Of a DNA stretch of 64,000 bases, positions 844-58,512 are shown in pieces. The stretch lies in the NCBI GenBank assembly GCA_016705245.1, contig JADIYM010000003.1:420148-484147 (forward strand), given 5' to 3'. The notes below the pieces were generated by a model, which worked only from the letters and a program-made list of their open reading frames with translations, was not told the DNA's origin and did not search any database. The position numbers and the translations under genes are program-made. Within the stretch, counting starts at the first letter, position 1. Each line of letters begins with the position of its first letter. This DNA is from Blastocatellia bacterium. GTDB lineage: Bacteria; Acidobacteriota; Blastocatellia; UBA7656; JADIYM01.

Positions 844-917
844 AGGCGCAAAGGCGCAAAGTCCAGAAAAGACCTTCAGGGCAGTGAATGCCGTATCTTC
901 CTTTGCGCCTTTGCGCC
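844..917. repeat. Family-A palindromic repeat (inverted GCGCAAAGGCGCAAAG arms, ~40-nt loop), copy A1
   Basis: AGGCGCAAAGGCGCAAAG ... CTTTGCGCCTTTGCGCG; same arms recur at 13679, 17253, 34078, 44822. Confidence 0.8.
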
Positions 918-1089
918 TTTGCGCGAGGCTTGTCCCACTCTTCCGTTCCCCTACCCCTAACCCCCTCCGAACGCTCCAATTGACGCCTGTTTGCGCCCCC
1001 TGTTACTTTACTCGTGCAGGATTGTTAGATTCTTACGGCCGACCCGTTTCAATGGTCGTGTCGAAACGCGAAGGAGCGAGCCCGCTGTA

Positions 1090-1293
1090 ATGTCCGAACC
1101 CTACAACAACAACGCCAACAAGATTTTCTGGTCCGTCTTTGCGACGATCGTCACCATCGGCATCGTGTATGCCGCTTCTATCGGCAATCTCAAGACGTCC
1201 GAGACCTTCGTCGTCAGCCTCCTGTGCGCCATTTCGATCGGCGGACTAGCGTACCTCGACATCAACCCCGCGTTTAACCATCAGCCAGAATAG
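1090..1293 (+). CDS. small membrane protein, 67 aa, two predicted TM helices (hypothetical)
   Basis: ATG at 1090 with GAAGGAG ~14 nt upstream; hydrophobic segments IFWSVFATIVTIGIVYAASI and FVVSLLCAISIGGLAYL; GC3-rich codon use. Confidence 0.45.
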   Translation: MSEPYNNNANKIFWSVFATIVTIGIVYAASIGNLKTSETFVVSLLCAISIGGLAYLDINPAFNHQPE

Positions 1294-1435
1294 CGGGAAC
1301 CGAAAACGCCGCGCCGCGTCTTTTGAGGCGGCGCCGTCAAACCAGTGGGGCGCGGGCAAACGAGACAAGGTCCAATCGACTCTACTGCGTGGAGGCGAAT
1401 CGCCGGTTTTTCCGAATCTGGAGATGTGACGAAAT

Positions 1436-2599
1436 ATGATGTCGGACAAGATGATGTTTGGCGAAGCATTCGACCCGAAGGACAACTTCTTCGCCCGAAT
1501 GCTCAGCAATTTCAAGGCGGCGTGGGCGGCGAGCACCGGCGAAGGTGACGTTCCGGGGGATGCCCCGGTCCACTTCACGATGATTCGTGAGGAGATCGTC
1601 TTCAAACGGCTCGCCGAGCAGCTCGGATTCGCCTTTGGTGAACTGCAGCGCGACCCGGCCGGCTTCGTCAAAGTGCTCGTTTCGCCCGACGAGAGCAATC
1701 CCGACCAGCTCAAGACCCGGCAGGCGGCGTGGGCGCTGACGGTCATCGTGCCGCTCGGCTTGATTGGGGCTTTCCTCTTCGGCATCCTGATCTACTTCAT
1801 GATCTATGGGCGTCCGCTCACGAACGTAGAGGCGTCGACCGACACGCCGCTCTACGACGTCACGATGCTCGACAAGCCGTATGAGAAGCCGACTCCGACC
1901 GACAAGCAGGGCAAGGCCGGCAAGCCGGGTGATGCGGGCGGCGGCGGCGGCGGCAAGAACGAGCCTCAGCCGGTTGCGAAGGGCGTTCCTCCTCAGACCT
2001 CGATGAAGATGGATCAGCCGATCGCCGATCTGACGACGAAGACGCTGCCTCCGCCTCCGCCGAAGCCCCTCAATCTGCCGAACTCGGTGCTTGCGGAAGC
2101 GGTACCGAATCGGACCGACGATCTCTCGCGGCTCGGGGATCCGAATGGCAAGGTGGGACCCGAGTCCGATGGCTCCGGCAAGGGCGGCAACTATGGTTCC
2201 GGCGCCGGCAGCGGCGTTGGTGGCGGTGATGGTCGCGGCGAAGGCGCCGGCCAGGGCTTCGGCCGCGGCGGCGGGCCTGGCGGCAACGGCGGCGGTGGCG
2301 ACGGTGGCGGCGCCTCATCGCGGGTGGCGGTGTCGAAGGCGCGCGTGCTCAACAGCCCGCGTCCGGCGTACACGGAGCAGGCTCGGCAGAACAAGACCCA
2401 GGGCAGCGTGACGCTGCGAGTGACCTTCGGCGCGAACGGACGCGTCAAGTCGGCGTCGGTCGTGCGCGGGCTTCCGGATGGGCTCAACGAAAAAGCCATC
2501 GAAGCTGCCTACAAGCTCAGCTTCGAGCCGGCGCGAAACGGCGCCGGCATACCCGTTGATTCAACGCAGACGGTGAGTGTGAACTTCACTATCAGGTGA
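1436..2599 (+). CDS. TonB family energy transducer (N-terminal cytoplasmic region, TM anchor, Pro/Gly-rich spacer, TonB C-terminal domain)
   Basis: TM LTVIVPLGLIGAFLFGILIYFMIY; PPPPKP and Gly-rich spacer; C-terminal ARVLNSPRPAYTEQARQNKTQGSVTLRVTFGANGRV...FEPARNG typical TonB_C. Confidence 0.75.
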   Translation: MMSDKMMFGEAFDPKDNFFARMLSNFKAAWAASTGEGDVPGDAPVHFTMIREEIVFKRLAEQLGFAFGELQRDPAGFVKVLVSPDESNPDQLKTRQAAWALTVIVPLGLIGAFLFGILIYFMIYGRPLTNVEASTDTPLYDVTMLDKPYEKPTPTDKQGKAGKPGDAGGGGGGKNEPQPVAKGVPPQTSMKMDQPIADLTTKTLPPPPPKPLNLPNSVLAEAVPNRTDDLSRLGDPNGKVGPESDGSGKGGNYGSGAGSGVGGGDGRGEGAGQGFGRGGGPGGNGGGGDGGGASSRVAVSKARVLNSPRPAYTEQARQNKTQGSVTLRVTFGANGRVKSASVVRGLPDGLNEKAIEAAYKLSFEPARNGAGIPVDSTQTVSVNFTIR

Positions 2600-3717
2600 C
2601 CACGAGTACGCAACGCGATGTGACCGACAGGGGGGCTGCTGAAGTTGGCCCCCCTGTCGCCATTGCGGCGAAGGAGCGGATGGTTACGACGGATGTGTTG
2701 CGAATAGGGCCGCTGCCCGAGCCGGGCCTCTTCGACCGGCTCCGAGCGAGTTGGAGCCTCGACGCGCTGATTCCGTCGTTCGAGCCGGATCCGACGATGC
2801 CGCCCCGCAAGGGATTTCGCATCGCGGGCGCGCTTGCACTTGTCGTTCACGCAGGCGTCCTGGTTGCGATCGTGTTGTTCGGTCGATACGCGATCATGAC
2901 GTTCGTCGAGAAGCCGAAAGAGGAATACGTCTGGGTCGCGCCCAACGAATTCCGGCCGGCGGATAATCCGGATACGCCAGGTTCCGAGCCGGCGACCCCT
3001 GACGGCGGACCCGGCGGCTCACCGGCCGACGGCGGCGGCAGCAATACCGACACGAAACCGGCGACGGGAGGCGAGTTGCCACCGACATCGCCCGTGCCAT
3101 CGCCGGTACCGTTGAACCTGCCGCCTCCGCCGACTCCCGTCAGCCTGCCGATGACGGCAACGATTCAGGGTCCGGACCTGGCGGTGCCGCCGCCCGCTGG
3201 TGAGATTGGCCTGCCCGGAGCGCCTGACAAGCCGGGCGAGCCGTCGACCGGTGCTGACGGCGGCCGTGGTGTCGGCGACGGTCGCGGCGATGGAGGAGGA
3301 CCCGGAACTGGCCCCGGATCGGGAAGCGGACCGGGTGGTCCGGGCGGCCGCGGGCCGGGTCCCGGCGGATCGACCGATGGCCGAACTGGTGGTGTCGGCG
3401 GCCCGGGAGGCAACGGCCCCGGAGGCGGGGTACAGGACCGCAATGTGCGGATGGTGCGAAAGTCACCCCCCAAGATTCCGAAGAAGATGGCAGAGAAGGG
3501 CTCTTTCGGAACGGTGAAGCTGAGAGTGACGATCGGTCCGGACGGCTCTATCCTGAGCGTCATACCGGTCAACACGCTCGCCGATGGCGGAACGCAGGCG
3601 GCGATCGACTCGATCTATCGATGTAGGTTCGAGCCTGCCATACGCAACGGCGTGGCGGTAACTGACACCATCATCGTTACGCAGAACATTTCGCCGTTGA
3701 CGGGCTACAGAGAATAG
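2596..3717 (+). CDS. TonB family protein, paralog in tandem (GTG start overlapping upstream stop; alternative Met start near 2797)
   Basis: TM FRIAGALALVVHAGVLVAIVLFG; Pro-rich then Gly-rich spacer; C-terminal KSPPKIPKKMAEKGSFGTVKLRVTIGPDGSILSV...FEPAIRNG TonB_C; ends TAG 3715-3717. Confidence 0.7.
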   Translation: MTTSTQRDVTDRGAAEVGPPVAIAAKERMVTTDVLRIGPLPEPGLFDRLRASWSLDALIPSFEPDPTMPPRKGFRIAGALALVVHAGVLVAIVLFGRYAIMTFVEKPKEEYVWVAPNEFRPADNPDTPGSEPATPDGGPGGSPADGGGSNTDTKPATGGELPPTSPVPSPVPLNLPPPPTPVSLPMTATIQGPDLAVPPPAGEIGLPGAPDKPGEPSTGADGGRGVGDGRGDGGGPGTGPGSGSGPGGPGGRGPGPGGSTDGRTGGVGGPGGNGPGGGVQDRNVRMVRKSPPKIPKKMAEKGSFGTVKLRVTIGPDGSILSVIPVNTLADGGTQAAIDSIYRCRFEPAIRNGVAVTDTIIVTQNISPLTGYRE

Positions 3718-3739
3718 CCACCCCATCGCGCGTCGATTG

Positions 3740-3832
3740 GCCCAGAACCCCGGAGCGTAGCGAGGGGCCGACGTACGACCCAAGTCGCGTGGAGATCACA
3801 GTCGGCCCCTCGCTACGCTCGGGGTTCTGGGT
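3740..3832. terminator. Bidirectional terminator-like hairpin between convergent TonB paralog and hisS (31-32-bp perfect arms, 28-nt loop)
   Basis: GCCCAGAACCCCGGAGCGTAGCGAGGGGCCGAC ... GTCGGCCCCTCGCTACGCTCGGGGTTCTGGG. Confidence 0.6.
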
Positions 3833-3966
3833 CAACCGCTGGCTGTTTTACGACACTTCCTCGCGACCCATTGCGACCCGTGCGTTACCGCGACGGTACT
3901 GATGCGTTGACCGCGCGTCGTTGAGACACGTTCATTACAAACCTATGACTGTCTCCTCATCTGTGT

Positions 3967-9720: not shown

Positions 9721-9852
9721 CCGTGCAATGCGCGAAGCGCTTTGGAGTGCGGCGTGAATCGCCGCTTTGGATTGTAATTTCGGGTTCCCGGAGAGTGGAA
9801 TCCAAAGCGGCGATTCACGCCGCACTCCAAGGCGCTCCGCGCAGTGCCGACG
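9721..9852. promoter_or_regulatory. Large hairpin (37-bp perfect arms, 25-nt loop, imperfect outer extension) between the PP2C gene end and the Mo-hydroxylase operon start
   Basis: GCGCTTTGGAGTGCGGCGTGAATCGCCGCTTTGGATT ... AATCCAAAGCGGCGATTCACGCCGCACTCCAAGGCGC; sits ~70 nt upstream of the small-subunit start. Confidence 0.5.
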
Positions 9853-13624: not shown

Positions 13625-13678
13625 GTCGTGATCATGCGCCGGAGAGCCTTGGCTGCATAGCTCCCATTGCAGCCCTGC

Positions 13679-13772
13679 GACTCTGCGTCTTCACTTTGCG
13701 TCTCTGCGAGAACCTCTTCTCCCGTGCGTGAGGGGGGGTTCTCGCAGAGACGCAAAGTGAAGACGCAGAGTC
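13679..13772. repeat. Family-A palindromic repeat, extended form (~36-bp perfect arms), copy A2
   Basis: GACTCTGCGTCTTCACTTTGCGTCTCTGCGAGAAC ... GTTCTCGCAGAGACGCAAAGTGAAGACGCAGAGTC. Confidence 0.8.
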
Positions 13773-13831
13773 GCATGAAAACTGGGGGTGGAATGGCTAC
13801 TTGATACCTCTCGCCATACGCTCGCACCTTT

Positions 13832-16954: not shown

Positions 16955-17252
16955 GCGCGTCAGTCTACCACCGCGTGCGAGGACTGTCGGCCCACCGCTC
17001 GAACTTCGTGCTTGACGCAACGGAGGACACGTCGTATTCTCCGACTTGGACAATTGTCCAAGTCGCTTAGTCGCGCCGGGCGTGGGCCGCGAGAATCCAC
17101 TGTCGGCCTCTCGGAGACTCGCCGCCCGCTCCCGACCGCGACCGATCTCACAGCCCGCTTCGGCGGGTGGCACTGCGCCGGCGATGAGGCAAACTGGCCC
17201 GGCGGCACCGCCTCCCGCTGAGGTTGGCTCGCTAAGAGTCAACAGATAAACA

Positions 17253-17350
17253 CTTTGCGTCTTTGCGTCTTCCTTTGCGCCTTTGCGAGAACCTCTTCTA
17301 GCCGTCAAGAAGTTCTCGCAAAGGCGCAAAGGAAGTCGCAAAGACGCAAG
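17253..17350. repeat. Family-A palindromic repeat, long nested form, copy A3
   Basis: CTTTGCGTCTTTGCGTCTTCCTTTGCGCCTTTGCGAGAAC...GTTCTCGCAAAGGCGCAAAGGAAGTCGCAAAGACGCAAG. Confidence 0.8.
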
Positions 17351-19537: not shown

Positions 19538-19630
19538 GGCGTCTCCTGTGGCGAAACTCGGCGTGAGTCGAACCGGGAACGTTAGCAGAGGATGCGCCCG
19601 GGTGGGAAAGTGGCCGGATTGGGGTGTCAA

Positions 19631-19757
19631 GAAGGCGTAGCCGTACAGAGAGCACAGAGTCACGGAGTGCACGGGCAGACAAACGGATCGTCTCTGTGTG
19701 CTTCGTGACTCTGTGCCCTCTGTCCGGCTACGCCTTCTTCCGGTCCCTGGCTACCGG
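19631..19757. repeat. Family-B palindromic repeat copy B1 (~31-bp arms CACAGAGTCACGGAG-type) plus a ~65-bp flank shared with copy B2
   Basis: GGCGTAGCCGTACAGAGAGCACAGAGTCACG ... CGTGACTCTGTGCCCTCTGTCCGGCTACGCC; flank CTTCTTCCGGTCCCTGGCTACCGG ~85% identical to 28518-28585. Confidence 0.8.
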
Positions 19758-19918
19758 ATCGGGCAGGTCAGGTCCAATTTTCGTGTGAGGGGATCTGGTC
19801 GAAGAATCCGGTAGCTCTCATTGAAGGGCAGAACGTGCCGGTGCTGCACTGCCTCCGAGGCCAGCTCGCAGCGGTCGCAACGTGCTCACCTGGAACCCAC
19901 GTCAATAAGGAGCAACCG

Positions 19919-20371
19919 ATGAATCGCAAGAGCATCCTCACCGTAATCGCAGCAGTCGTGATCCTCTCCGCCGGCTTTGCCGTCGGAGCCCAGGTTTCGC
20001 GCCCGTACCACAACGGCAGTGTCTGGGGGATCGGCCAGATTCGCGTCAAGCCGGGCATGGGCGAAGCCTACAAGACCTATCTCGCCACCGAGTGGAAGAC
20101 CAACCAGGAGGCCATGAAGAAGGAAGGCATCATCCTCTCGTACAAGGTCATTTCGACCGAGGCGCACGGCACGCAGGATTTCAACATGCTCCTGATGACC
20201 GAGTACAAGGACCTCGCGACATACGAGGCGAATCAGGACAAGGCCGACGCCCTCGCGCAACGGATCGTCGGCGACGACAAGAAGCAGGAGCAGGGGTACC
20301 GGGATCGATCCGAGATGCGCGAAGTGCTTGGAAATCGGCTGGGTCGCGAGATCGTCCTGGCGCCGAAGTAG
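19919..20371 (+). CDS. secreted hypothetical protein (150 aa) with signal peptide
   Basis: ATG 19919 with AAGGAG upstream; signal peptide MNRKSILTVIAAVVILSAGFAVGAQ. Confidence 0.55.
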   Translation: MNRKSILTVIAAVVILSAGFAVGAQVSRPYHNGSVWGIGQIRVKPGMGEAYKTYLATEWKTNQEAMKKEGIILSYKVISTEAHGTQDFNMLLMTEYKDLATYEANQDKADALAQRIVGDDKKQEQGYRDRSEMREVLGNRLGREIVLAPK

Positions 20372-20765
20372 GCAACGAACGGAGACCAGTGCGCGGACGG
20401 CCGCCGGGAGTCGAACCCGGAGCGCAAGCAACGGGCCAACTTCCCCGTCCGCGCATGTCCGTAAGACCAGACGCCGGACGATCAATCACGTCACGCGCTC
20501 GGAATCGCACCGTTTCCCGGCCGCAATGGCTATCCCCGGCCATTCCCACCGTCCCGTCCTTCCCGAACATCCCGACCATCGGCACATCCTCGCTCCACGA
20601 CCCCCCGGCAGGTGCCGGGGCCAGCCCTTCAGCGCGTCCAGATTCAGCCGTGTCGTCCGTGGTGTTTCGTCCGCCGCCGCAATCAACTCTTGATGTCTAC
20701 TCCCTGCCCCGTCAAACTGGAGACTCGCGAGGTCAAACGGTATAGCGATAGAGACTCTGGTCGGC

Positions 20766-21341: not shown

Positions 21342-21347
21342 AAACGC

Positions 21348-23181: not shown

Positions 23182-23250
23182 CCCTACGTCCGCCCGGACA
23201 CTCCGTGAGGGGGCTCACATCGAATCTGCGGTTCTTTCGTTGGAGTTTGT

Positions 23251-26579: not shown

Positions 26580-26654
26580 CGTGAGTGGATCCGGCGGCGG
26601 GTTGCGGTTTCCTTTATGAAAGAGAAGGCCATCTCGGAAAGGGAGGATGGTGTC

Positions 26655-27572
26655 GTGAGGAAATGGATCTGTCTGTTTGCCGTCGGTCTCTTCATCCACC
26701 TGTCGGTGGCTCAGGCTGTCGCGCAGGATCCCGCGGGGCCAGATGATGGAACGCGGCACCTGTGGAACACTGCGTACATCGCCCCCGCACCCGGCACGAC
26801 CGCGAGAAGGCGCCCCGCGAGGCGAATCTACCGGATTGCTACGCCGAAGGTGCCAGTGGCTGGCGTGACTGCGGACACGGTGGTCGGCGTGACGCTATGG
26901 AGGCTGCGACCGGCGCGCCGGTCCGACGCCGGCGAGCGGATCATCACGCACGAAGGCCCGGATGCTGTCGATTGGGTGCCGGAGCGCGTGTCGTCGACGA
27001 CGCGGCTTGCGCAAGGCGATCGCCTGCGGATCAGCATCGAGGCGGCCCGGACCGGCTACCTCTACGTTGTCAATCGCGAGGAATATGCCAACGGCACACG
27101 CGGCGAGCCGATCCTGATCTTTCCGACGACGCGCACACGCGGAGGCGACAACCAGGTCCGCGTGGGCCGCGTGATCGAGATTCCTGCGCAGGAAGACTCG
27201 CCTCCGTTCTTCACATTGCAAAAGAGCCAGCCCGAGCACGTGGCGGAGAGTGTGACGATCATTGTGTCACCGACGCCGATCGAGGGGTTGAACATTACGG
27301 ACAAGCAGCTGCGGTTGACGGAGGAGCAGGTCGCGGCGTGGGACAAGCAGTGGGGCGGTCAGGCTGGCCGTCTGGAGATGCAGGGTGGTGCCGGCAAGCC
27401 CTGGACGAGCGCGGAGAAGGACGCTGGCTCGGACGGTACGCGATCGCTGACGAAGGCTGATCCGGTCCCGCAGACGGTGTTATACCGCCCCGGCGTCGCG
27501 AGCGACCGCGGCGCGTTGTACCAAGTGAAACTGAACTACGCCCGCCGTTCGCCACGGAACAGGGCGCGGTAG
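26655..27572 (+). CDS. secreted DUF4384-like protein
   Basis: GTG start with GGGAGGA upstream; signal peptide RKWICLFAVGLFIHLSVAQAVAQ; RTGYLYVVNREEY motif resembling the kinase ectodomain GYLYLLNEGP; ends TAG. Confidence 0.65.
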   Translation: MRKWICLFAVGLFIHLSVAQAVAQDPAGPDDGTRHLWNTAYIAPAPGTTARRRPARRIYRIATPKVPVAGVTADTVVGVTLWRLRPARRSDAGERIITHEGPDAVDWVPERVSSTTRLAQGDRLRISIEAARTGYLYVVNREEYANGTRGEPILIFPTTRTRGGDNQVRVGRVIEIPAQEDSPPFFTLQKSQPEHVAESVTIIVSPTPIEGLNITDKQLRLTEEQVAAWDKQWGGQAGRLEMQGGAGKPWTSAEKDAGSDGTRSLTKADPVPQTVLYRPGVASDRGALYQVKLNYARRSPRNRAR

Positions 27573-27610
27573 CGCCCGGCCGCGCACACACGCGACTGTA
27601 GAGCGGCAGA

Positions 27611-27985
27611 TTCCGCGACCGCGGACCGGTCAGTTCCGCGACCGCGGACCGGTCAATTCCGCGACCGCGGACCGGTCAACTCCGCGACCGCGGACCGGTC
27701 AACTCCGCGACCGCGGACCGGTCAACTCCGCGACCGCGGACCGGTCAACTCCGCGACCGCGGACCGGTCAACTCCGCGACCGCGGACCGGTCAACTCCGC
27801 GACCGCGGACCGGTCGATTCCGCGACCGCGGACCGGTCGATTCCGCGACTGCGGACCGGTCAACCTGGGCGACCGCGGAGCGGTCGATGAAGAAGCCTGG
27901 GTCGCGCGCGGGCGAGTGCAGCGAGCCCTCGCGTGACCCGCGGAACCGCCGGCCGCCACGCACCGACCGCGGAGCGGTCGCATCT
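27611..27985 (+). repeat. Tandem array of a 23-bp REP-like unit (about 12 good copies, then degenerate copies)
   Basis: Period 23 (starts at 27611, 27634, 27657, ...); unit contains the palindromes CCGCGG and GACCGGTC; no unique spacers, so not CRISPR. Confidence 0.85.
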
Positions 27986-28262
27986 TCAGTCCCAAAGATA
28001 ACGTGCGTCGCAGGCGACACCGTGCTCGTCGAGTAGTGAGACGAACTCCTCGTCGTAGGACACGCGCCGGTGGTGCTCCTTCTGTGCCGCGATGTAACGG
28101 CGCACGGCGGGCAATTCCGATCTTCCCACGGAGAACCCTCCGTATCCGTCCTGCCAGCTGAAGTCCCTCGAGACCGCCTCGTGGCGTTTCAGCCACGTCG
28201 TTCGCTCGATGCTTCGTCGGGAACACGATGTGCAGGTAGACCTCGATCAGTGTCCGTGCCAT
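27986..28262 (-). pseudogene. REP-associated tyrosine transposase (RAYT, IS200/IS605 TnpA-like) remnant, internally deleted and frameshifted
   Basis: N-terminus MARTLIEVYLHIVFPTKHR in one frame. C-terminus RDFSWQDGYGGFSVGRSELPAVRRYIAAQKEHHRRVSYDEEFVSLLDEHGVACDARYLWD in another. Only ~91 codons total versus ~150-170 for intact RAYTs. Confidence 0.7.
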
Positions 28263-28299
28263 GGGCCTTGCTCTCTTGGCCCATGATCGAAATCCGCAC

Positions 28300-28510
28300 G
28301 GCCTGAGTTGCTTCCCACTCGCAACAAGGCGACCGCCCGGCGGTCGCGCGTGGCTGGCGGCATGCGGGTCGCGCGCAGGCTCGCTGCACTCGCCCCCGCG
28401 CGACCCACGGCTATTTCATCGACCGCTCCGCGGTCGCGGAATTAACGCTCCACGATCGTGGAATTAACGCTCCGCGGTCGCGAATTACCGCTCCGCGGTC
28501 GCGGAATTCA
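28300..28510 (-). repeat. Right inverted terminal segment of the RAYT element plus 3-4 inverted copies of the 23-bp REP unit
   Basis: Reverse complement of 28300-28425 aligns with 27870-27985 (GGTCGATGAA...GGGTCGCGCG...GCGAGTGCAGCGAGCC...). Units GACCGCTCCGCGGTCGCGGAATT at 28421, 28466 and 28487. Confidence 0.7.
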
Positions 28511-28517
28511 CGCTCCG

Positions 28518-28580
28518 CTGTGTGCTTTGTGACTCCGTGCTCTCTGTGCGGCTACGCCTTCGTGCGGTCCCTAGCTACCG
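28518..28580. repeat. Family-B repeat copy B2 (half-palindrome plus shared flank, direct-repeat partner of B1 flank)
   Basis: TGTGTGCTTTGTGACTCCGTGCTCTCTGTGCGGCTACGCCTTCGTGCGGTCCCTAGCTACCGG vs 19690-19757. Confidence 0.7.
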
Positions 28581-28582
28581 GG

Positions 28583-29365
28583 TCAGCCGCACGCAGCCAT
28601 TCTCACGTCGATCAGGAATCGGTCGATCTCGGCGATATTGGGCGCCGCGTCCGGCAACGACGATCGCTCGTATGCACGCAGCATCTCGGCTTCCAGCATC
28701 GAGATCTTCTGGGCGTGTCGCTCGACTTCGTCACGCCCCATGGTCGTGCCATCGCCGGATCGCTTTCGCTCAATGAGGTCGGCAATCCCATCGACGTTGC
28801 GATCCGCGGCGAGCCGGGTCACGTTGCACTCCACCTCTCCAGTCGACATCAAGTGGATTCCCGTCAGAAGCACGCGATAGACATAGAGCAGCGTCTTTAC
28901 CCGCTTCGGCTCCTCGGACGTGAACGCCTTCCATCGTCCGCGGACGAAGCCACGATAGTGATGATAAAGCGTCCGGTTCACGAATCCGTGAGCGAGCGAG
29001 CGGAGTTGCTCGAACTCGGGCCGGGCGACGACGACGTGCGGTGACGTGATCTGTTCGAGGACGTAGCCGTTTTTTGCCACGAGCAACCGCAGGTACTTGC
29101 CGATGTCGTGCGAAAGCAGGTCGATCCGCATGCCGTCGACCGTATCGTCACGGTCGTGCGACTCGCGCGGCGGACGAAGCGAGATTACGGACTCGAGAGG
29201 AAGAACGTGGGCCCCCCGAATGTCCACGTCGCTCTCCGACGACGGAAATCCATAGAGGTGCGCGCCGCTGACTACGGCAAACAATGGAAGTGCTGGGCCG
29301 AGATCCGAGACGAGAGACGCCAGCCACGGAGCGTCTAGTGCGGCCGCATTCCTGCTCATTGACAA
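28583..29365 (-). CDS. nucleotidyltransferase-fold protein (GS...DxD NTase motif; DUF4037/KNTase-like)
   Basis: VVSGAHLYGFPSSESDVDIRGAHV matches the pol-beta-type NTase signature hG[GS]x9-13DxD; 260 aa; flanked on both sides by family-B repeats. Confidence 0.55.
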   Translation of the reverse strand: MSMSRNAAALDAPWLASLVSDLGPALPLFAVVSGAHLYGFPSSESDVDIRGAHVLPLESVISLRPPRESHDRDDTVDGMRIDLLSHDIGKYLRLLVAKNGYVLEQITSPHVVVARPEFEQLRSLAHGFVNRTLYHHYRGFVRGRWKAFTSEEPKRVKTLLYVYRVLLTGIHLMSTGEVECNVTRLAADRNVDGIADLIERKRSGDGTTMGRDEVERHAQKISMLEAEMLRAYERSSLPDAAPNIAEIDRFLIDVRMAACG

Positions 29366-29505
29366 CTCCAGCCCATGGCGTCGACCACGCCGTTCGGCGC
29401 CAGGGCACGGAAAATTCGGTTTACGTTCTGGAGAGCGGCATGAGCATACGCCTGGGGGAGTGGCCGCTCAAGCTCGCAGGATTGCGAGACGACTCGCCTC
29501 CGCGG

Positions 29506-29585
29506 CTCCGTGACTCCGTGTCTCTGTGTGCGCAGCTCTTCAGAGCGCTTCGCACACAGAGACACGGAGTCACGGAGTCACGGAG
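29506..29585. repeat. Family-B palindromic repeat copy B3
   Basis: CTCCGTGACTCCGTGTCTCTGTGTGCG ... CGCACACAGAGACACGGAGTCACGGAGTCACGGAG. Confidence 0.8.
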
Positions 29586-34077: not shown

Positions 34078-34172
34078 GACTTCGTCTCGCGTCGACTCGG
34101 TCCTTTGCGAGAAACTCTTCGAGCCGTCGAAGAAGTTCTCGCAAAGGCGCAGAGGAAGACGCAAAGACGCAA
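34078..34172. repeat. Family-A palindromic repeat, degraded copy A4
   Basis: TTTGCGAGAAACTCTTCGA...TCGAAGAAGTTCTCGCAAAGGCGCAGAGGAAGACGCAAAGACGCAAG; outer left arm diverged. Confidence 0.7.
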
Positions 34173-34245
34173 GGTAAGCAGTGAGCCTGCACCATGTTCA
34201 GGATGCGAGTTGGACCGTCTTGACTCGGGCCGGTATTCTCCGACG

Positions 34246-36756: not shown

Positions 36757-37060
36757 CCGATCACTTCAGTGCGGCCAACGACGAGTCCGCGGTTTCAGCC
36801 ACCGTCCGTGGGACGCTCGCTACCGCTCGCGGCTCGACAAACGGGGACGGGAACGGCGGGCGGCCCCCGTTTTTTGAGCCGCGAGCGGTAGCGAGCGTCC
36901 CACGGACGGTCGACCGGTTCCGATCACTTCTGTCCTTCCGCAACGACGAGTCTGCGAGTTCACGCACCGTCCGTGGGACGCTCGCTACCGCTCGCGGCTC
37001 GAGAAACGGGGACGGGGGCGGGGACGGGGGCGGACGGAGCGTCCTGCCCCCCGCCAGTGG
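36757..37060. repeat. Complex repeat cluster (family D): two direct ~100-bp copies and an inverted partial copy forming a ~35-bp-stem hairpin with a nested GC hairpin
   Basis: ACCGTCCGTGGGACGCTCGCTACCGCTCGCGGCTCGA(C/G)AAACGGGGACGGG at 36800 and 36966; reverse complement at 36867-36912; CCGATCACTTC...CAACGACGAGTC also duplicated (36757/36917). Confidence 0.75.
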
Positions 37061-38176: not shown

Positions 38177-39267
38177 ATGACCGAGCCGCTCATCACGATC
38201 GACGACCTAAAGGTCCACTTCGACCTCTCGCACCGCGGCCTGATTGCCCGGGCGACAGGACGGGCAAAGGAGAAAATCGTGAAGGCCGTCGACGGCATCT
38301 CGCTCGAGATCCGCCGCGGCGAAACGCTCGGACTCGTCGGCGAGTCCGGCTGCGGCAAGTCGACCACTGGCCGCGCCATCCTCCAGCTGGTCCGCCCGAC
38401 GTCGGGACGGGTCATGTTCGCCGGCAGGAACCTTTCGGAAGTGAAGGACGGCGACATGAAGCCGTACCGGCGGCGCCTCCAGATGATCTTCCAGAATCCG
38501 TACGCATCGCTGAATCCGCGTATGACGGTCGGATCGATCATTGCCGAGCCCATCCGCAACTTCCGGATCAACCTCGGGGAGTCACAATCGGCGGCGCGCA
38601 CACAGGAGCTGATGCGCGTCGTCGGGCTCAACCCGCGATACGTCAAGCGTTATCCGCACGAGTTCTCAGGCGGACAGCGCCAGCGCATCGGCATCGCGCG
38701 CGCGCTCGCGGCCGACCCCGAGTTCATCGTCGCCGACGAGCCGATCTCGGCGCTCGACGTCTCTATTCAGGCGCAGATCATGAACCTGATGGAGGATCTG
38801 CAGGAGCAGTTCGGGCTGACGTACCTGTTCATTTCGCACGACCTGCGGGCCGTTCGACACGTCAGCGACCGCGTCGCCGTGATGTACCTCGGCAAGATCG
38901 CGGAGCTCGCGATCTCGAAGGACATTTACATCCGCCAGATTCACCCGTACACCGGGCGCTCATATCGGCGGTTCCGTCCCCGATCCGAAGGTAGAAGCAG
39001 CGGAAACGCATCGTGCTCCAGGGTGACGTGCCGTCGCCGATCAACCCGCCTCCGGGATGCCACTTCCACACGAGGTGTCCGTACGCGATCGCTGCGTGCG
39101 CGAGGATCGTTCCCGCGCTTCGCGAGATCCAGCCGGAGCACTTCGCGTCGTGCATCCGCGTATCGCCCGAATATCCCGACATCGATGCCGTCGCGAAGAT
39201 GCCGGGTGAGCGGCACTTTGGTGTCGAAGGAGTGGGAGCTTCGCACACAGAGACACGGGGACACTGA
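38177..39267 (+). CDS. oligopeptide/dipeptide ABC transporter ATP-binding protein (DppF/OppF-like), disrupted: frame change near 38953 and in-frame TAG at 38992-38994
   Basis: Intact through Walker [31 protein letters not shown]. Conserved continuation ALISAVPSP...[31 protein letters not shown] lies in the +1 frame, interrupted by a TAG. The last ~15 codons translate repeat B4. Confidence 0.7.
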
Positions 39268-39326
39268 GACACTGAGTCTGCTCATCTCAGTGACTCCGTG
39301 TCACCGAGCCTCTGTGTGCGAAGCTC
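39236..39326. repeat. Family-B palindromic repeat copy B4
   Basis: GAGCTTCGCACACAGAGACACGGGGACACTGAGACACTGAG...CTCAGTGACTCCGTGTCACCGAGCCTCTGTGTGCGAAGCTC. Confidence 0.8.
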
Positions 39327-44821: not shown

Positions 44822-44896
44822 GCGCAAAGGCGCAAAGTACACCGGATTCACCGGCTATTTCACACCTGCAATTTTTGCCCTTTGCGCCTTTGCGCG
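44822..44896. repeat. Family-A palindromic repeat copy A5
   Basis: GCGCAAAGGCGCAAAG ... CTTTGCGCCTTTGCGCG, same arms as A1 with a different loop. Confidence 0.8.
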
Positions 44897-50850: not shown

Positions 50851-50996
50851 CTTCGTGCGGTGCAGGAGAGTGGACAGAATTCACGGGATTTGAAGAGGAT
50901 TGTCGGGACGGCTTGATTGAGGTTGTGGCGCGCTCGGATTCTCAACAAGCATTCCCTCGAATCCTCGGAAAATCCTGTCAATCCTGTCCACTCTCT

Positions 50997-51045
50997 CGCT
51001 TCGCACGCAGAGACACGTAGGCACAGAGTGGTGACGCAGCGAGGC
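50997..51045. repeat. Family-B repeat, partial/degenerate copy B5
   Basis: CGCTTCGCACGCAGAGACACGTAGGCACAGAGTGGTGACGCAG. Confidence 0.5.
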
Positions 51046-51613: not shown

Positions 51614-52880
51614 TTACCGGTGATTGTTGGCGTGCAGGATTCGCATCCGCAGCTTGCAGCCGGGCTCGAACGCGAAATGCGTCGACTGATCCGGCTGCTG
51701 CACAACTCCAACGACCGATCCGTGCGAACTGACGACCAGCCGCTTCGGTCCGACGATGCCCGGGCTCGCACCTTCGAAAAACTGTCCGTGGATCGTGATG
51801 TTCCCACCACCGGTGATCTGGCAGTCGACGAGGACGCCATCCTGCCCGACGACGAGTTCCGCGCCTTCACCAAGAGCGATCGAACACTGCTCGAAGCGGC
51901 TTTCGATCTCGACGTACGCCGACTGACCGAACTCGAGGTTCGCGTTTCGAAGCACGTCACCCTTTCCGAAGTAGCGCTTGATCCGGTCATCACCGCCACT
52001 GGCGGTCGCCGCGGCGACCGCTGCAGCCGCTGCCGCCTTGCCCGACAGCACCGCCGCAATCTGATCACCCGTAACCCGGACCGATCCGTCGCCGTCAGCG
52101 CTGTTGTCGACCCACTCGGCAATAACGCCTTCGACATCGCCGCCACCTGCCTCGATGCCGAACACCTTCGCGCCGGTCAGGATCGCGCCTGCGAGGCGTG
52201 TCCCGGAAATGGACGCCCGTCGAAGGTCGGCGCCCGTCAGGTCGGCTCGCGTGAGATCCGCCTTCGAGAGATCCGTCTTCGAAAGGTCAGCACCGGCGAG
52301 CTTGGCGCCGCGGCCGACGACGCCCGAGAGATTCGCGTCGGCAAGGATGGCCCCCGTCAGGTCCGCCTCCTCGATGTTCGCGCGCTCCACGTTCGAGCTC
52401 GTCAGGTTGATCTTCGACATCTTCGCGCCGCTCAGGTCGCACTCGACGAGGTCGGCATACGAAGCATCGGCGTCGCTCAGATCGGCTCCACCAAGCTTGG
52501 CTTCATCGATCTGGGCATACATGAGGTGCGCTCCGGAGAGGTTCGCACCTTCGAGATTGGCGCCCTCGAGGTTGGCGCGATTGAGTTTCGCGCCGGCCAG
52601 GATGGCCATCTCGAGGTTGGCTTCCTCGAGGTCGGCCTTCTCGAGGTTGGCTCCCGTCAGGTCCGCGCCAAGCATCTTAGGCCTCCCCCATGCTCGCGTT
52701 CGCCAGATTCGCCCCCTTGAGTTTCGCCTCCTCGAAGTTAACGCCTTCGAGATCCGTGCGACGGAGGTTCGCGCCTTCGAGGTTTGCCTTCGAAAGGTCG
52801 ACGCCCGAAAGGTCGGCACGTTCGAGGCTTTCGCCCTTCTGGACTTTCTCCAGAACTTCTTCTCTAGTGAAATCTGCCAT
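51614..52880 (-). CDS. pentapeptide-repeat protein (~420 aa), apparent frameshift near 52686
   Basis: More than 30 A(D/N)L(S/T)GA pentapeptide units. N-terminal 67 aa (from 52880, SD GGGGAGG upstream) are in a different frame from the body; the junction is at a C5/G5 run at 52686-52690. Confidence 0.75.
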
Positions 52881-55597: not shown

Positions 55598-55851
55598 ATC
55601 ACGACCGGCTCGGCCAAAAAAAACCTGAACCCCTCCGAGGCCCGTGTCGTAGTGTGCGCTGTTCACGTTCTTTCTGAATTTGCACTGGAGCCGAAATCCC
55701 GCTTGGGCGGGGTGCGGGGGAACCAACTTTTGGGGTGAATTCCGCGGAGGGCCGCGGATAGAGCATCTTCCAGCTCGAACCCGTCAGCTAACCTCGTAGG
55801 CTGGTGGAAGAGCCGTCTGTCAATGGGCGACTCCTGGACTTGCTGTGTCCC

Positions 55852-55905: not shown

Positions 55906-56002
55906 GGCCGCCTCGTGAACCTGCGCCGCGCCATGCTTTCTCCTCCTGGGCGCGGCGCCTTTGTCTGCCTACTCCCGCTCCCCGCCTGTTGGAGTGACCG
56001 TC

Positions 56003-56434
56003 ATGTCCACACAGGCATTGGTCCATGTGACCGTCCTCGACGCTTCCGTCGAGACGGCAAACGGCACGCGAACCGGCGTTTGCCGCCTTCGCGTGCGAGC
56101 CGCTCGAAACCTGCCACGCGCCGTCCACCGGGGCACGGTCCGCCTCGCCGGCCTCGAGCAGACCTTGCGAGGCACTTTCCCGTGCCGGCTGCTTCGCCAC
56201 TACGCGGTTGAACGCATCGGTGACGAGCCGGACGGCGCGGTCTATGCCGTGACGATTGACCTGAGCGACGAAGGACACGCCCCCGTGGCGCGCTACGCGC
56301 CGCCGGGAGCCTGCCTCAGGTCTCCGAGCGAACCGATCGAGGTCGTCTGCAAGCGAATTGCCGGCGTCTTCGGCCGCGTGTGCGAGGAGTTTCGTCCATC
56401 ATCGGTCGTCGTCGATCTCGACGCGACTGCGTAA
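56003..56434 (+). CDS. hypothetical protein (143 aa) with weak PilZ-like motifs
   Basis: RLRVR (RxxxR) and DLSDEG (DxSxxG), but ~55 residues apart, longer than the canonical spacing, hence low confidence. Confidence 0.35.
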   Translation: MSTQALVHVTVLDASVETANGTRTGVCRLRVRAARNLPRAVHRGTVRLAGLEQTLRGTFPCRLLRHYAVERIGDEPDGAVYAVTIDLSDEGHAPVARYAPPGACLRSPSEPIEVVCKRIAGVFGRVCEEFRPSSVVVDLDATA

Positions 56435-56488
56435 TTCGCGCGCCACCGCGCGCTGCCAGGAAAGCCAGTCGGCTTTCGGAGGAAGTCA

Positions 56489-58414
56489 ATGAACGTCGTT
56501 GTTCAGTCGACCCTGTTCGGTTTCGCGATCCTCGTGTTCTCAGTCGTGGTCGGATGGATCGTGCCGTCGCTCTACCTGATTCGCGAATCCGAAGTCGGTC
56601 TCGTCGAAAAAAAGGTCCTCGGCGGATCCCTTCCCGCGGGCCGCGTCGTCGCGGCCGACGGTGAGCAGGGACTGCAGGCCCGCACCCTCGCGCCCGGACT
56701 GCACTTCATGCCGAAACCGTTCTTCAAGGTGTGGCGGATTCCGCTCACGCGTGTGCCCCAGGGATTCATCGCCCTCATCACGGCGATCGACGGCGCACCG
56801 CTGCACATCGGCCAGCTGCTGGCGCGAACCGTCGATGGGCACCATAACTTCCAGGACGGCGTGGCCTTCCTGAGCCGCGGCGGTCAGAAAGGCGCCCAGG
56901 TCGGAATCCTGACGCCTGGCCAGTACCGGATAAACACGCGGCTCTTCGAGGTCGACATCGCCGCGGCGATCGAGGTCCCGGAGGGACGCATCGCCACGGT
57001 CACGGCGATCGACGGTGCGCCGCTTCCGATGGGTCAGCTTCTCGGTCGGGCGACGGCCGGCCACAGCAGTTTTCAGGATGCGGAAGCGTTTCTCGCCGGC
57101 GGAGGCCAGAAGGGACCTCAGGTAGAGATCCTGACGCCCGGCATGTATTACATCAACCCGCGGATGTTTGGCGTGAAGCTGGGCAATGCCGTCAAGGTCC
57201 GTACTGGCGAGATCGGCATCGTTGAAGCATTCGACGGCACCGAACTGCGCACCGAGCAGATTCTCGGCGACTCGCTCCGCGGGCACGACGACTTTCAGTC
57301 CGCCCAGGCATTTCTCGACGCGGGCGGCCAGCGCGGTCCGCAACTCGACATCCTCAAGCCGGGGATGTACATCAATCCCCTGCTTTTCGACGTGACGGTC
57401 CAGGACGCCACGGTGATCAACATCGGCGAGGTCGGCGTCATCCGCTCGAACGTCGGGATCCTGCCTCCGGTCGGTGAGGACGGCCGCACTCCGGATCTCG
57501 TCGACGAGGGGTACCGCGGCGTGCTCAAGACCGTGCTCGAGCCGAACACGTATTACCTGAATCCGATCGCGTACGTCGTGTTCCCTATCTCGACGCTCAA
57601 CATCACGATCGACTGGAGCACCGAGAATCGCGACACGCCGCGTGACTCGGTCACGGTGAAGAGCCGCGACGGATTCTCGTTCCCGGTCGACGTCAAGGTG
57701 GTCATTCGGGTCCTCAAGGAGCACGCGCCCCTCGTGGTCTCGAAGATCGGCTCGATCCAGAACGCCGTCGACCGCGTGATTCACCCGGCGATCGGCGCAA
57801 CGTTCCGCAACAATGCCGAGCGTTGTGACGCGCTCGACTTCCTGAACAACCGCTCGGTGCAGCAGGCGAACGCGAAGGACGTCACGACGGTCATGCTTCG
57901 CGAATACGGCATCGAGACCGTCGACGTGCTCGTCGGCAACGTCGGGATTCCCGAAGAACTGCTCAAGACGCAGACCGACCGCTTCCTCGCAAAGGAGCGC
58001 GAGAAGACCTATCGCGAGCAGAAGACGGCGGAGGACACGCGCCGCGAGCTCGAGAGCGCGACGGCACTCGCCAACCAGCAGAAGAACATCGTTGCGGCGC
58101 ACGCTTCGGTCGAGATCTCGAAGTCGTCCGCGGCTGCGATGGTCGCGGCCGCCGAAGGCGAGGCGCGGCAGATCGAGCTTCGCGCCGACGCGAACAGCGC
58201 GGCGTACCAGAAACTCATTGCCGAGATCGGGCGCGAGGGACTCATCGGCATCGAGATGCTCAAGCTCGTGCGCGATGGCCAGATCAAGATCACGCCCGAG
58301 GTGTATGTCTCAGGCGACAGTGCGGGGCCGATGTCAGCCCTGGCGGCAACGATGCTAGGCGGTCGACGCCAGGAGACCTCGATCCGAACGAGCGATGCGC
58401 CACAAGCCGCGTAA
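56489..58414 (+). CDS. SPFH/band-7 family flotillin-like membrane protein with three N-terminal ~60-aa tandem repeats
   Basis: N-terminal TM; repeats ...AIDGAPL..GQLL(A/G)R...FQD..AFL..GGQ(K/R)GPQ..IL(T/K)PG.Y.IN.; SPFH core; C-terminal Ala/Glu-rich coiled-coil AAAMVAAAEGEARQIELRADANSAAYQ. Confidence 0.7.
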   Translation: MNVVVQSTLFGFAILVFSVVVGWIVPSLYLIRESEVGLVEKKVLGGSLPAGRVVAADGEQGLQARTLAPGLHFMPKPFFKVWRIPLTRVPQGFIALITAIDGAPLHIGQLLARTVDGHHNFQDGVAFLSRGGQKGAQVGILTPGQYRINTRLFEVDIAAAIEVPEGRIATVTAIDGAPLPMGQLLGRATAGHSSFQDAEAFLAGGGQKGPQVEILTPGMYYINPRMFGVKLGNAVKVRTGEIGIVEAFDGTELRTEQILGDSLRGHDDFQSAQAFLDAGGQRGPQLDILKPGMYINPLLFDVTVQDATVINIGEVGVIRSNVGILPPVGEDGRTPDLVDEGYRGVLKTVLEPNTYYLNPIAYVVFPISTLNITIDWSTENRDTPRDSVTVKSRDGFSFPVDVKVVIRVLKEHAPLVVSKIGSIQNAVDRVIHPAIGATFRNNAERCDALDFLNNRSVQQANAKDVTTVMLREYGIETVDVLVGNVGIPEELLKTQTDRFLAKEREKTYREQKTAEDTRRELESATALANQQKNIVAAHASVEISKSSAAAMVAAAEGEARQIELRADANSAAYQKLIAEIGREGLIGIEMLKLVRDGQIKITPEVYVSGDSAGPMSALAATMLGGRRQETSIRTSDAPQAA

Positions 58415-58512
58415 GAGAGCTTCGCACACAGGGACGCGGAGACATGGAGGCACGGAGAATCCTGGACTCCGTGCCTCCGTGTCTCAGTGTCTCTGTGTGC
58501 GAAGCTCTCCCT
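58415..58512. repeat. Family-B palindromic repeat copy B6
   Basis: GAGCTTCGCACACAGGGACGCGGAGACATGGAGGCACGGAG...CTCCGTGCCTCCGTGTCTCAGTGTCTCTGTGTGCGAAGCTC. Confidence 0.8.

What the first reader, a model, noticed from the sequence alone, without database searches (positions are those of the whole stretch)
844..58512. Two dispersed families of nested palindromic intergenic repeats (5 and 6 copies in 64 kb)
Family A (arms GCGCAAAGGCGCAAAG, sometimes extended with GAGAAC...GTTCTC and GACGCAAAGACGCAAG) occurs at 844, 13679, 17253, 34078 and 44822. Family B (GAGCTTCGCACACAGAGACACGGAGTCACGGAG and its reverse complement) occurs at 19631, 28518, 29506, 39236, 50997 and 58415. All copies are intergenic, usually at gene 3' ends or between convergent or divergent genes. 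Several are swallowed by over-extended ORF predictions: the purL start, 28520 ORF, 34066 ORF, the oppF C-terminus. A third structured family (D) sits at 36757-37060. This density of REP/MITE-like palindromes is unusually high and will confound gene calling and short-read assembly. They are candidate substrates of the RAYT-type transposase seen at 27986.
Basis: seen in the sequence. Interest (0 to 1): 0.6.

Follow-up and report, generated by a model that had tools for sequence, protein, structure and literature searches.

The report
Octamer-built hairpin repeats in an acidobacterium
This stretch of a Blastocatellia (Acidobacteriota) genome is studded with real, dispersed hairpin repeats whose arms are short arrays of 8-base units. 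They resemble the REP/BIME repeats of E. coli, but they are not tied to the broken transposase gene next to them, and the same 8-base arrays turn up widely in uncultivated phage contigs.

Summary
All listed copies exist and are far above chance. There are at least seven palindromic families, not two or three. Each A or B arm is a non-palindromic module: a short head followed by about three 8-nt repeats (CGCAAAGn, or nCACrGAG). Two modules in inverted order make a 40-50 bp hairpin, either head-to-head or tail-to-tail. They usually sit 0-30 nt behind stop codons and show no target-site duplications.

The genome is a Blastocatellia bacterium. Two conspecific assemblies carry the same copies. Sister species carry other families, or nothing, at the same sites.

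The "RAYT" at 27986 is a frameshifted, internally deleted pseudogene of TnpA-Y1 subclass 1.2.

Unexpectedly, both octamer triples occur in at least 120 IMG/VR contigs each (GC 0.31-0.70), against 9 for a permuted control, and often without a partner arm.

Best reading: REP/BIME-like non-autonomous modules recognised through iteron-like octamers by an unidentified trans-acting protein, possibly an HUH/Y1 enzyme. This is a new variant of a known kind, of moderate interest.

The parts
838..924 (.). Family A copy 1, tail-to-tail: three CGCAAAGn octamers, a 39-nt loop, then three inverted octamers. It lies 21 nt after the stop of a sigma-54 activator gene.
   Evidence: DNA fold -36 kcal/mol, z -9.0
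3734..3838 (.). Additional long hairpin (G) between convergent ORFs. It shares CTCGCTAC with family D.
9725..9847 (.). Family E: hairpin with 60-nt arms, each holding a nested GCGGCG..CGCCGC hairpin. It lies 9 nt after the stop of a PP2C gene. The same family fills the purQ|RlaP spacer in sister species L127.
13676..13775 (.). Family A copy 2, head-to-head (GAGAAC/GTTCTC heads at the centre, octamers outward). It lies between the chorismate-binding gene and the aminotransferase-IV gene. The element is absent from the 56-nt spacer in L128 and the 55-nt spacer in L129.
17252..17349 (.). Family A copy 3, head-to-head, 20 nt after the purL stop. L127/L128 have an unrelated small hairpin at this site. 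L130 has an A-type tail-to-tail hairpin there.
19629..19760 (.). Family B2 hairpin (head AAGAAGGCGTAGCCG plus CACrGAG octamers, tail-to-tail) with a small extra hairpin (19740-19760), upstream of purL. Positions 19694-19760 form a 67-nt direct repeat with 28518-28584.
   Evidence: (D15, I11)
27545..27865 (.). Family C: tandem array of about 13 units of 23 nt (TCCGCGACCGCGGACCGGTCAAC), forming the left flank of the transposase remnant.
   Evidence: (D1)
27869..27985 (.). Left long inverted repeat of the transposase locus. GACCGCGGAGCGGTC hairpins bracket a 44-nt palindrome arm. It pairs with 28364-28437.
   Evidence: (I10, I22)
27986..28262 (-). TnpA-Y1 (IS200-like, subclass 1.2, 'RayT' in JGI naming) pseudogene. 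The N-terminal 20 aa and the C-terminal 76 aa lie in different frames, and the HUH region is deleted.
   Evidence: (Pfam Y1_Tnp 25.7 bits)
28364..28516 (.). Right long inverted repeat (28364-28437) plus an inverted family-C array of about 4 units (28422-28516).
   Evidence: (I10, I22, D16)
28518..28584 (.). Family B2 single arm plus small hairpin. It directly abuts the RlaP stop codon on one side and the family-C array on the other. It is the direct-repeat partner of 19694-19760, and the pair brackets an 8.9-kb block.
   Evidence: (D15)
29498..29585 (.). Family B, head-to-head (GAGCTTCGCACACAG heads at the centre, 4-nt spacer), 8 nt after the purQ stop.
34078..34175 (.). Family A copy 4, head-to-head with a decayed left arm, in the divergent M16-peptidase|methyltransferase spacer.
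   Evidence: (D17, I5)
36776..37021 (.). Family D cluster: three 46-nt units in alternating orientation (36801-36846, 36865-36910, 36966-37011), between coaE and an ABC ATPase gene. The homologous spacer is only 76-124 nt in L129 and L127.
   Evidence: (D11, I6, I7)
39236..39326 (.). Family B, tail-to-tail with a 9-nt loop. Its left arm supplies the last ~11 codons and the stop of the oppF-like gene. The loop is 16 nt longer in the conspecific contig L380.
44822..44895 (.). Family A copy 5, tail-to-tail (two octamers per arm, 42-nt loop), 22 nt after the stop of the gamma-glutamyltranspeptidase gene.
50851..51029 (.). Family F hairpin (arms 50851-50915 and 50946-51010, with AATCCTGTC sub-repeats). 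It runs into a single degenerate family-B unit (50997-51029). It lies between the convergent PFK and bactofilin genes.
   Evidence: (I3, D8)
58415..58509 (.). Family B, tail-to-tail. It exactly fills the spacer between the stop codons of the convergent Band-7 and TPR/DUF4388 genes.

Best explanation
Families A, B and B2 are populations of a REP/BIME-like, non-autonomous repeat. The basic unit is a non-palindromic module of 30-45 nt, made of a short head followed by about three 8-nt repeats (CGCAAAGn, or nCACrGAG). Two modules in inverted order, in either polarity, form a 40-50 bp hairpin.

Shown: the modules are multi-copy and have sharp ends. They sit immediately behind stop codons. They are gained, lost and replaced at the same sites between closely related species. 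They have no target-site duplications.

Inferred: the octamers act as iteron-like recognition sites for a sequence-specific, multimerising protein acting in trans. The most plausible candidate is an HUH/Y1-type enzyme encoded elsewhere in the genome, which would copy modules as single-stranded hairpins into new sites. The mechanistic precedent is AAV Rep, an HUH enzyme that binds (GAGC)n repeats in the stem of the hairpin ITR. Once inserted, the long hairpins probably serve as transcript 3'-end structures.

The Y1 pseudogene in the window is not that enzyme. It belongs to a separate element with its own repeat, family C.
For: Real and non-random.

Modular anatomy: of 100 family-B units, 34 pairs are head-to-head (a TCTTCAGAC-type linker recurs by inspection), 9 pairs are tail-to-tail and 14 units are single.

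Sequence-specific constraint: CAC and GAG are kept at 77-99% (most columns 92-99%), while the n position of each octamer is as variable as flanking DNA. The unit ends sharply at column 43. Within-pair identity at n columns is only 0.53-0.58, so complementarity comes from the conserved motif, not from compensatory change.

No duplications or conserved target at 33 head-to-head elements, as expected for IS200/REP-type ssDNA mobility.

Position: mostly a few to about 35 nt after stop codons once a 13-nt coordinate offset is allowed for (window copies).

Turnover:
- The purQ|RlaP spacer holds B in the window, E in sister species L127, and nothing in L129/L130.
- A2 is absent from L128 and L129.
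- The purL 3' end holds A head-to-head in the window, A tail-to-tail in L130, and another hairpin in L127.
- There are 0 A/B modules in 66 kb of sister species.

Same architecture around Y1 genes of this protein family: inverted arrays of 22-23-mers (window, L044) and of CCGTGAR 7-mers (L045).

Literature: Acidobacterial Y1 genes with long TIRs and dispersed TIR families (PMC3733652). Class-3 TnpA-Y1 of Acidobacteria with about 600 atypical hairpins carrying a CnGA foot (PMC6006769); CACrGAG contains C-r-G-A.

Wide spread of the modules: at least 120 IMG/VR loci each, against 9 for a permuted control.
Against: No transposase of any kind has been linked to A or B. No Y1 homologue was found in 310 kb of B-bearing MAG loci or in 2.2 Mb of module-bearing viral loci. 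The only Y1 gene nearby is dead and flanked by a different repeat.

No insertion event with an unambiguous empty site was recovered. Conspecific assemblies have all copies in the same places, so mobility is inferred from between-species differences only.

Many modules in viral contigs lack a partner arm: 48% of B-type and 82% of A-type. A hairpin is therefore not obligatory, which fits a duplex-binding protein as well as it fits an ssDNA mechanism.

The AAV-Rep analogy and the CnGA link are recalled or read from the literature, not tested here.
Confidence: 0.42

Rival explanations
1. Host-selected transcript-end elements. The hairpins would be factor-independent or RNase-III-type 3'-end structures (terminators, mRNA stabilisers, operon insulators). 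They would be kept by selection at gene ends and spread or replaced by recombination rather than by transposition.
For: Placement is within a few to about 35 nt of stop codons, in the window and in MAG loci, and between co-directional phage genes. The stems are very stable. Several copies exactly fill the spacer between convergent genes. REPs are known to stabilise mRNA and to terminate transcription (PMC6006769 background).
Against: No T-runs follow the stems (read directly). G.T wobbles show no strand bias relative to transcription (30 against 30). A structure-only function does not explain 92-99% conservation of CAC/GAG with free n positions, nor identical octamers in contigs of GC 0.31-0.70. 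Many modules have no partner arm. Some copies lie in divergent promoter spacers (A4, B2; one search gives 6 of 36).
Confidence: 0.25
2. Binding arrays on duplex DNA for a sequence-specific multimerising DNA-binding protein (ribbon-helix-helix-like or nucleoid-associated). Examples are the 8-bp MetJ boxes and the ParG or omega operator/centromere arrays. On this view the hairpin potential is a by-product of symmetric site arrangement.
For: The 8-bp periodicity with conserved triplets and free spacer positions. Both polarities and solo arrays occur. Different octamer or heptamer arrays lie side by side in direct order in L145.
Against: No candidate protein is known. Operators and centromeres are normally element-specific, not shared across phages of very different GC. 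The strong preference for positions just behind stop codons is not expected. The analogy rests on recalled knowledge.
Confidence: 0.13
3. One reading: A and B are REPINs mobilised by the RAYT-type gene at 27986.
For: A B2 arm directly abuts the right family-C array, and a B-like octamer run abuts a family-C array in L030. Family B co-occurs with this transposase lineage in L044.
Against: The gene is a pseudogene in both conspecific assemblies. Its cognate flanks are family C, in the window, in L044, and as solo copies in L128. It is TnpA-Y1 subclass 1.2, which is described as lacking IS or REP properties. The orientation of the abutting B-like runs is not consistent between the window and L030.
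Confidence: 0.07
4. Conventional MITEs: deletion derivatives of a DDE-type IS, with terminal inverted repeats and target-site duplications.
For: Size of about 90-100 nt, inverted arms, multi-copy, intergenic.
Against: No TSDs at 33 elements. The same module occurs head-to-head, tail-to-tail and solo, so there are no fixed termini. No parent IS was found. No hits in plasmid records.
Confidence: 0.05

Closest known systems
REP/BIME of enterobacteria and REPINs of Pseudomonas (with RAYT/TnpA-REP)
   Same: Multi-copy and extragenic, mostly 3' of genes. Units occur singly, as inverted dimers in both polarities, or in clusters. The long hairpins are about 90-100 nt. No TSDs. Lineage-specific families with turnover between species.
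   Different: The unit itself is not a palindrome and carries no GTAG or CGTC tag. It is built from about three 8-nt direct repeats. No class-2 RAYT flanked by the same repeat was found.
TIRtrons/TIRYT and their dispersed TIR families (Di Nocera et al. 2013, PMC3733652); TnpA-Y1 subclass 1.2 and class 3 (Quentin et al. 2018, PMC6006769)
   Same: The Y1 remnant at 27986 with its long inverted repeats and dispersed solo copies (family C) fits this description. Acidobacteria are named in both papers. Class-3 genes are associated with hundreds of atypical hairpins.
   Different: Families A and B are not the inverted repeats of the Y1 gene seen here. The link to class 3 (CnGA foot) is untested.
STRR short tandemly repeated heptamers of heterocystous cyanobacteria (recalled knowledge)
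   Same: Several 'flavours' of 7-8-nt tandem repeats in intergenic DNA, often downstream of ORFs. Function unknown.
   Different: Here the period is 8 nt and the copy number is fixed at about 3 per module. Each module has a defined head and is commonly paired in inverted order. The modules are also found in phage contigs.
AAV inverted terminal repeat with its Rep-binding element (recalled knowledge)
   Same: A hairpin whose stem carries short tandem repeats, (GAGC)n, read by an HUH endonuclease. This is a mechanistic precedent for octamer arrays in hairpin stems being read by a Y1/HUH protein.
   Different: It is a eukaryotic virus replication origin, and the resemblance is analogy only. No Rep-like gene is associated here.

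Membership tests
Classical REP (GTAG/CGTC-tagged) | The unit is a 20-40 nt imperfect palindrome | tested here: not met
   The family B unit consensus is purine-rich and not self-complementary. A hairpin needs two units. The same holds for A.
Classical REP (GTAG/CGTC-tagged) | Conserved GTAG or CGTC tetranucleotide at one end | tested here: not met
   The consensus aAGAGCTTCGCACACAGAG(ACACrGAGn)3 and tTCTCGCAAAGrCGCAAAGnnCGCAAAG contain neither tag.
Classical REP (GTAG/CGTC-tagged) | High-copy, extragenic, mostly downstream of genes | tested here: met
   and the window copies.
REPIN-RAYT system | Two inverted repeats forming a hairpin of about 100 nt that is the replicating unit | tested here: inconclusive
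   Hairpin dimers predominate (43 pairs against 14 single units). A TCTTCAGAC-type linker recurs in head-to-head pairs, which suggests descent as a unit. However, both polarities and solo modules exist.
REPIN-RAYT system | A single-copy class-2 RAYT (Y---NP motif) flanked by the same repeats | tested here: not met
   The only Y1 gene is subclass 1.2 (YIAAQKEHH), it is a pseudogene, and it is flanked by family C. None was found in other A/B-bearing loci. The whole genome was not available.
MITE (DDE-type) | Target-site duplications and fixed terminal inverted repeats derived from a parent IS | tested here: not met
   No TSDs, variable polarity, no parent IS seen.
BIME-like mosaic | Units in alternating orientation joined by a small set of linker motifs | tested here: met
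   Head-to-head pairs have 4-17-nt spacers, with a recurrent TCTTCAGAC-type linker. Tail-to-tail pairs have variable loops. The family D trimer alternates in orientation.
TIRtron / TnpA-Y1 subclass 1.2 (applies to 27545-28516 only) | Y1_Tnp fold with Y---Q--HH motif; gene flanked by long inverted repeats that also occur dispersed | tested here: met
   Pfam Y1_Tnp. Motif present in the remnant and in P0005. Inverted repeats of 114 nt in L044, with 44- and 29-nt arms in the window. Solo copies in L128. The HUH motif is lost in the window copy.
Intrinsic terminator | GC-rich stem followed by a T-run | tested here: not met
   No T-runs follow any A or B stem on either strand (sequences). Not scanned with the terminator tool.
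Any Rfam family | Match at gathering score | tested here: not met
   The window gives only a c-di-AMP riboswitch. Seven viral loci with A modules give none.

The most novel reading that the evidence does not exclude
The triple-octamer module (tTCAC-(CACrGAGn)3 or tCTC-(CGCAAAGn)3) is the recognition element of a widespread, so far undescribed system. That system would be shared by Acidobacteria-like bacteria and many uncultivated phages of very different base composition. It would be either a new kind of trans-mobilised mini-element read through iterons, or a conserved protein-binding signal placed behind stop codons. The Blastocatellia hairpin families would be only its local, amplified form.
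Probability: 0.2. Interest if true: 0.75.

Novelty: new variant of a known kind. Interest (0 to 1): 0.5.

Why it matters
Practical impact. These repeats make up about 3-4% of the window (my tally of the parts listed). They extend ORF calls, supply the stop codon of at least one gene, and bracket an 8.9-kb gene block. They therefore affect annotation, assembly and genome rearrangement in a lineage known almost only from MAGs.

Conceptual impact. The repeats show a REP-like population built on a different grammar: a non-palindromic module made of 8-nt iterons, with strong position-specific conservation. The same grammar recurs in many predicted phage contigs.

Tried and rejected
- Exact protein look-ups for window genes failed. 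The source genome itself is not in the collections.
- The genome-contig scan with the B head found the repeat only in two MAGs labelled 'Clostridia' (GC 0.62-0.66) plus one probably chance Isosphaeraceae hit. It did not find the source genome.
- The metagenome scan with a Y1 profile returned only distant homologues (41-52% identity), with no A, B or C repeats in their flanks. It did not help to link A or B to a transposase.
- tblastn and hmmsearch for Y1 genes, including a class-3 signature regex, were negative in the MAG and viral loci.
- The TSD and target-motif search was negative.
- The test for RNA-level selection by G.U wobble strand bias showed none (30 against 30).
- Compensatory variation at n positions is only weak.
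- Plasmid and isolated-phage BLAST gave no matches or chance-level matches.
- Rfam gave nothing relevant.
- Literature string searches for the octamer sequences returned 0 papers. A keyword search on octamer repeats was uninformative. The supplements of PMC6006769 hold no class-3 hairpin sequences.
- Ideas considered and dropped for lack of fit: Shine-Dalgarno or CsrA-site arrays (the commoner CACAGAG variant lacks GGA/GGAG), sigma-70 or sigma-54 promoters, DGR-type mutagenesis, CRISPR-like arrays.


Full report
**1. Observation**

Both cores are far above chance. Family A gives 10 matches against 0.07 expected, and family B gives 4 against 0.00. Reading every listed position and a repeat scan confirm:
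- five A copies: 838-924, 13676-13775, 17252-17349, 34078-34175, 44822-44895;
- three complete B hairpins: 29498-29585, 39236-39326, 58415-58509;
- one degenerate B unit: 50997-51029;
- two copies of a related sub-family B2: 19629-19760, and a single arm at 28518-28584;
- family D: 36776-37021.

As single-stranded DNA the elements fold at -28 to -66 kcal/mol, with z-scores of -5 to -15 against shuffles.

**2. Organism and relatives**

The window (GC about 0.64) is syntenic with, and 97-98.6% identical to, a 1.16-Mb contig of a Blastocatellia MAG (GCA_016704725.1; L043). It is 99.1% identical to a wastewater contig (L380). purL homologues are all Blastocatellia or Acidobacteriota. In these conspecific assemblies every repeat is in the same place. 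Differences are small indels in loops and in array copy number.

**3. Anatomy**

An nhmmer census found 100 family-B units in the window, in 42 loci from two other MAGs, and in L043/L044. The unit consensus is aAGAGCTTCGCACACAGAG-ACAC-rGAG-nCAC-rGAG-nCAC-rGAG.

The CAC and GAG triplets are 77-99% conserved (most columns 92-99%). The r position is G or A. The n position is as free as flanking DNA. Conservation stops abruptly after the third GAG.

The unit is not self-complementary. Units pair head-to-head (34 pairs, spacers of 4-17 nt, with a recurrent TCTTCAGAC-type linker seen) or tail-to-tail (9 pairs), or stand alone (14).

Family A has the same grammar: a head tTCTC, then CGCAAAG octamers. 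B2 uses another head with the same CACrGAG octamers.

Within a pair, the n columns agree in 53-58% of cases against 30-32% for shuffled pairs. Arms are therefore related, but the stem is held together mainly by the invariant triplets, not by compensatory change.

No target-site duplication or conserved flank is seen at 33 head-to-head elements.

**4. Position**

In the window, and by crude gene calls in the MAG loci, the elements lie mostly a few to about 35 nt behind stop codons (after allowing for a 13-nt coordinate offset). Contexts for 36 pairs with a callable context are 13 and 9 co-directional, 8 convergent and 6 divergent.

B 58415 exactly fills the gap between two convergent stop codons. 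B 39236 supplies the last codons and the stop of the oppF-like gene.

purL is 740 aa, not 767. The ORF at 28520 is antisense to a Pfam-supported RlaP gene.

No T-runs follow the stems. G.T wobbles show no bias toward the transcribed strand (30 against 30).

**5. Turnover**

Loci around purL were compared in a sister species (L127/L128, purL 90% identical) and in more distant relatives (L129/L130, 76-77%).
- The purQ|RlaP spacer holds family B in the window, family E in L127, and only 10-17 nt in L129/L130.
- A2 is missing from the 55-56-nt spacer of L128 and L129.
- The purL 3' end holds a head-to-head A in the window, an unrelated small hairpin in L127/L128, and a tail-to-tail A in L130.
- Otherwise no A or B module occurs in 66 kb of those relatives.

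The families are therefore gained, lost and replaced on a between-species time scale, repeatedly at the same gene-end sites. No clean empty site allowing junction mapping was recovered.

**6. The transposase**

The gene at 27986-28262 (minus strand) is a decayed Y1 gene. Its N-terminal 20 aa and C-terminal 76 aa lie in different frames, and the HUH region is deleted. Pfam Y1_Tnp scores 25.7 bits. The conspecific MAG has the same remnant (P0007).

Intact homologues are 150 aa and carry HVH and YIAAQKEHH. The Y---Q--HH motif is the signature of TnpA-Y1 subclass 1.2, which Quentin et al. describe as low-copy and without IS200-type ends. Class-2 RAYTs have Y---NP (PMC6006769).

The remnant is flanked by its own inverted repeats and by inverted tandem arrays of 22-23-nt units containing GACCGCGGAGCGGTC (family C). 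The intact gene in L044 has the same flanks. Solo copies of the 114-nt inverted repeat occur in L128 without a gene. This matches the 'TIRtron/TIRYT' picture that Di Nocera et al. drew, including for Acidobacteria (PMC3733652).

A more distant homologue (L045) is flanked by inverted arrays of CCGTGAR heptamers. Inverted arrays of short tandem repeats are therefore a recurring feature of the flanks of this protein family.

No Y1 gene flanked by A or B was found in any locus.

**7. Spread beyond the lineage**

All window families have BLAST hits in the two MAGs, while almost no coding DNA does.

Scans of IMG/VR gave these results:
- 0 hits for the B head;
- 7 loci for the A head;
- 9 loci for a permuted control.

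These contigs span GC 0.31-0.70. The consensus there is a..tt.AC-(CACrGAGn)3-aaaa for B-type and tCTC-(CGCAAAGn)3 for A-type.

About half of the B-type triples have an inverted partner within 150 nt, mostly tail-to-tail. Only 18% of A-type triples do. Sense-oriented modules sit about 11-30 nt after the upstream stop. Different arrays can lie side by side (L145).

There are no hits in plasmids or isolated phages, none in Rfam, and none in a full-text search for the strings.

**8. Interpretation**

The data fit a REP/BIME-like population of non-autonomous modules. Three features argue for recognition by a sequence-specific, multimerising protein rather than for a structure-only role: position-specific conservation with free spacer bases, use in both polarities, and frequent solo copies.

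Three further features make a trans-acting HUH/Y1 enzyme the most economical candidate: the absence of TSDs, the hairpin potential, and the repeat-array flanks of Y1 genes in this clade. AAV Rep reading (GAGC)n in a hairpin stem is a mechanistic precedent, though this is recalled knowledge and analogy only. This step is inferred, not shown.

A role as transcript-end hairpins is compatible and may coexist.

**9. Novelty**

Dispersed palindromes and Y1-associated repeats in Acidobacteria are known in outline. I could not find in the literature the head-plus-three-octamer module, its two polarities, or its wide occurrence in predicted phage contigs. I rate it a new variant of a known kind, with moderate interest.

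Noticed in passing
window 19761-28517: An 8.9-kb block sits between RlaP and purL. It holds an ECF sigma factor, a Ser/Thr kinase with DUF4384, a TPR-CHAT protein, a DUF4384 protein and the Y1 remnant. RlaP and purL are adjacent (157 nt or less) in four related genomes. The block is bracketed by 67-nt direct repeats of a B2 arm plus small hairpin (19694-19760 and 28518-28584, 88% identical). This suggests insertion or recombination at a dispersed repeat.
   Followed up: partly
IMG/VR loci L131-L370 (e.g. L145 7700-7830, L254 3700-7720, L263 5767-6094): The A-type and B-type octamer triples occur in at least 120 predicted viral contigs each (GC 0.31-0.70), against 9 for a permuted control. Some contigs carry several kinds of 7-8-nt arrays and other hairpin families in nearly every intergenic spacer.
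   Followed up: partly
window 38944-38993, 39890, 39949, 41184: One- and two-base indels relative to a 99.1%-identical short-read contig (L380) break the oppF-like, UDP-glucose dehydrogenase and probably other ORFs. The window likely comes from a long-read assembly with residual indel errors, or carries real pseudogenes.
   Followed up: partly
window 55679-55817 (+): A c-di-AMP riboswitch (Rfam RF00379, 91 bits) lies upstream of a small ORF and the Band-7/SPFH gene.
   Followed up: no
L128 8161-8274 and 11831-11950; L021 1-200; L009 1-100; L030 1-290: Solo copies and arrays of the family-C inverted repeat, the cognate flank of the subclass-1.2 Y1 gene, occur in a sister species and in the two MAGs. 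In L030 the array is followed by a B-like octamer run.
   Followed up: partly
window 22523-22778: A 256-nt segment inside the kinase/DUF4384 ORF is absent from the conspecific contig L043.
   Followed up: no
L130 4855-4915: An A-type tail-to-tail hairpin (CGCAAAGACGCGAAG ... CTTCGCGTCTTTGCG) lies directly after the purL stop in a species with only 77% PurL identity. This is the same site as A3 in the window, but with a different arrangement.
   Followed up: partly
window 51614-52819 (-), 23737-24890 (+), 2175-3329 (+): Coding tandem repeats also dominate the direct-repeat list: pentapeptide repeats with a 15-nt period, TPR_12 units with a 120-nt period, and Gly-rich repeats in a TonB-like protein. 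They are unrelated to the finding.
   Followed up: no
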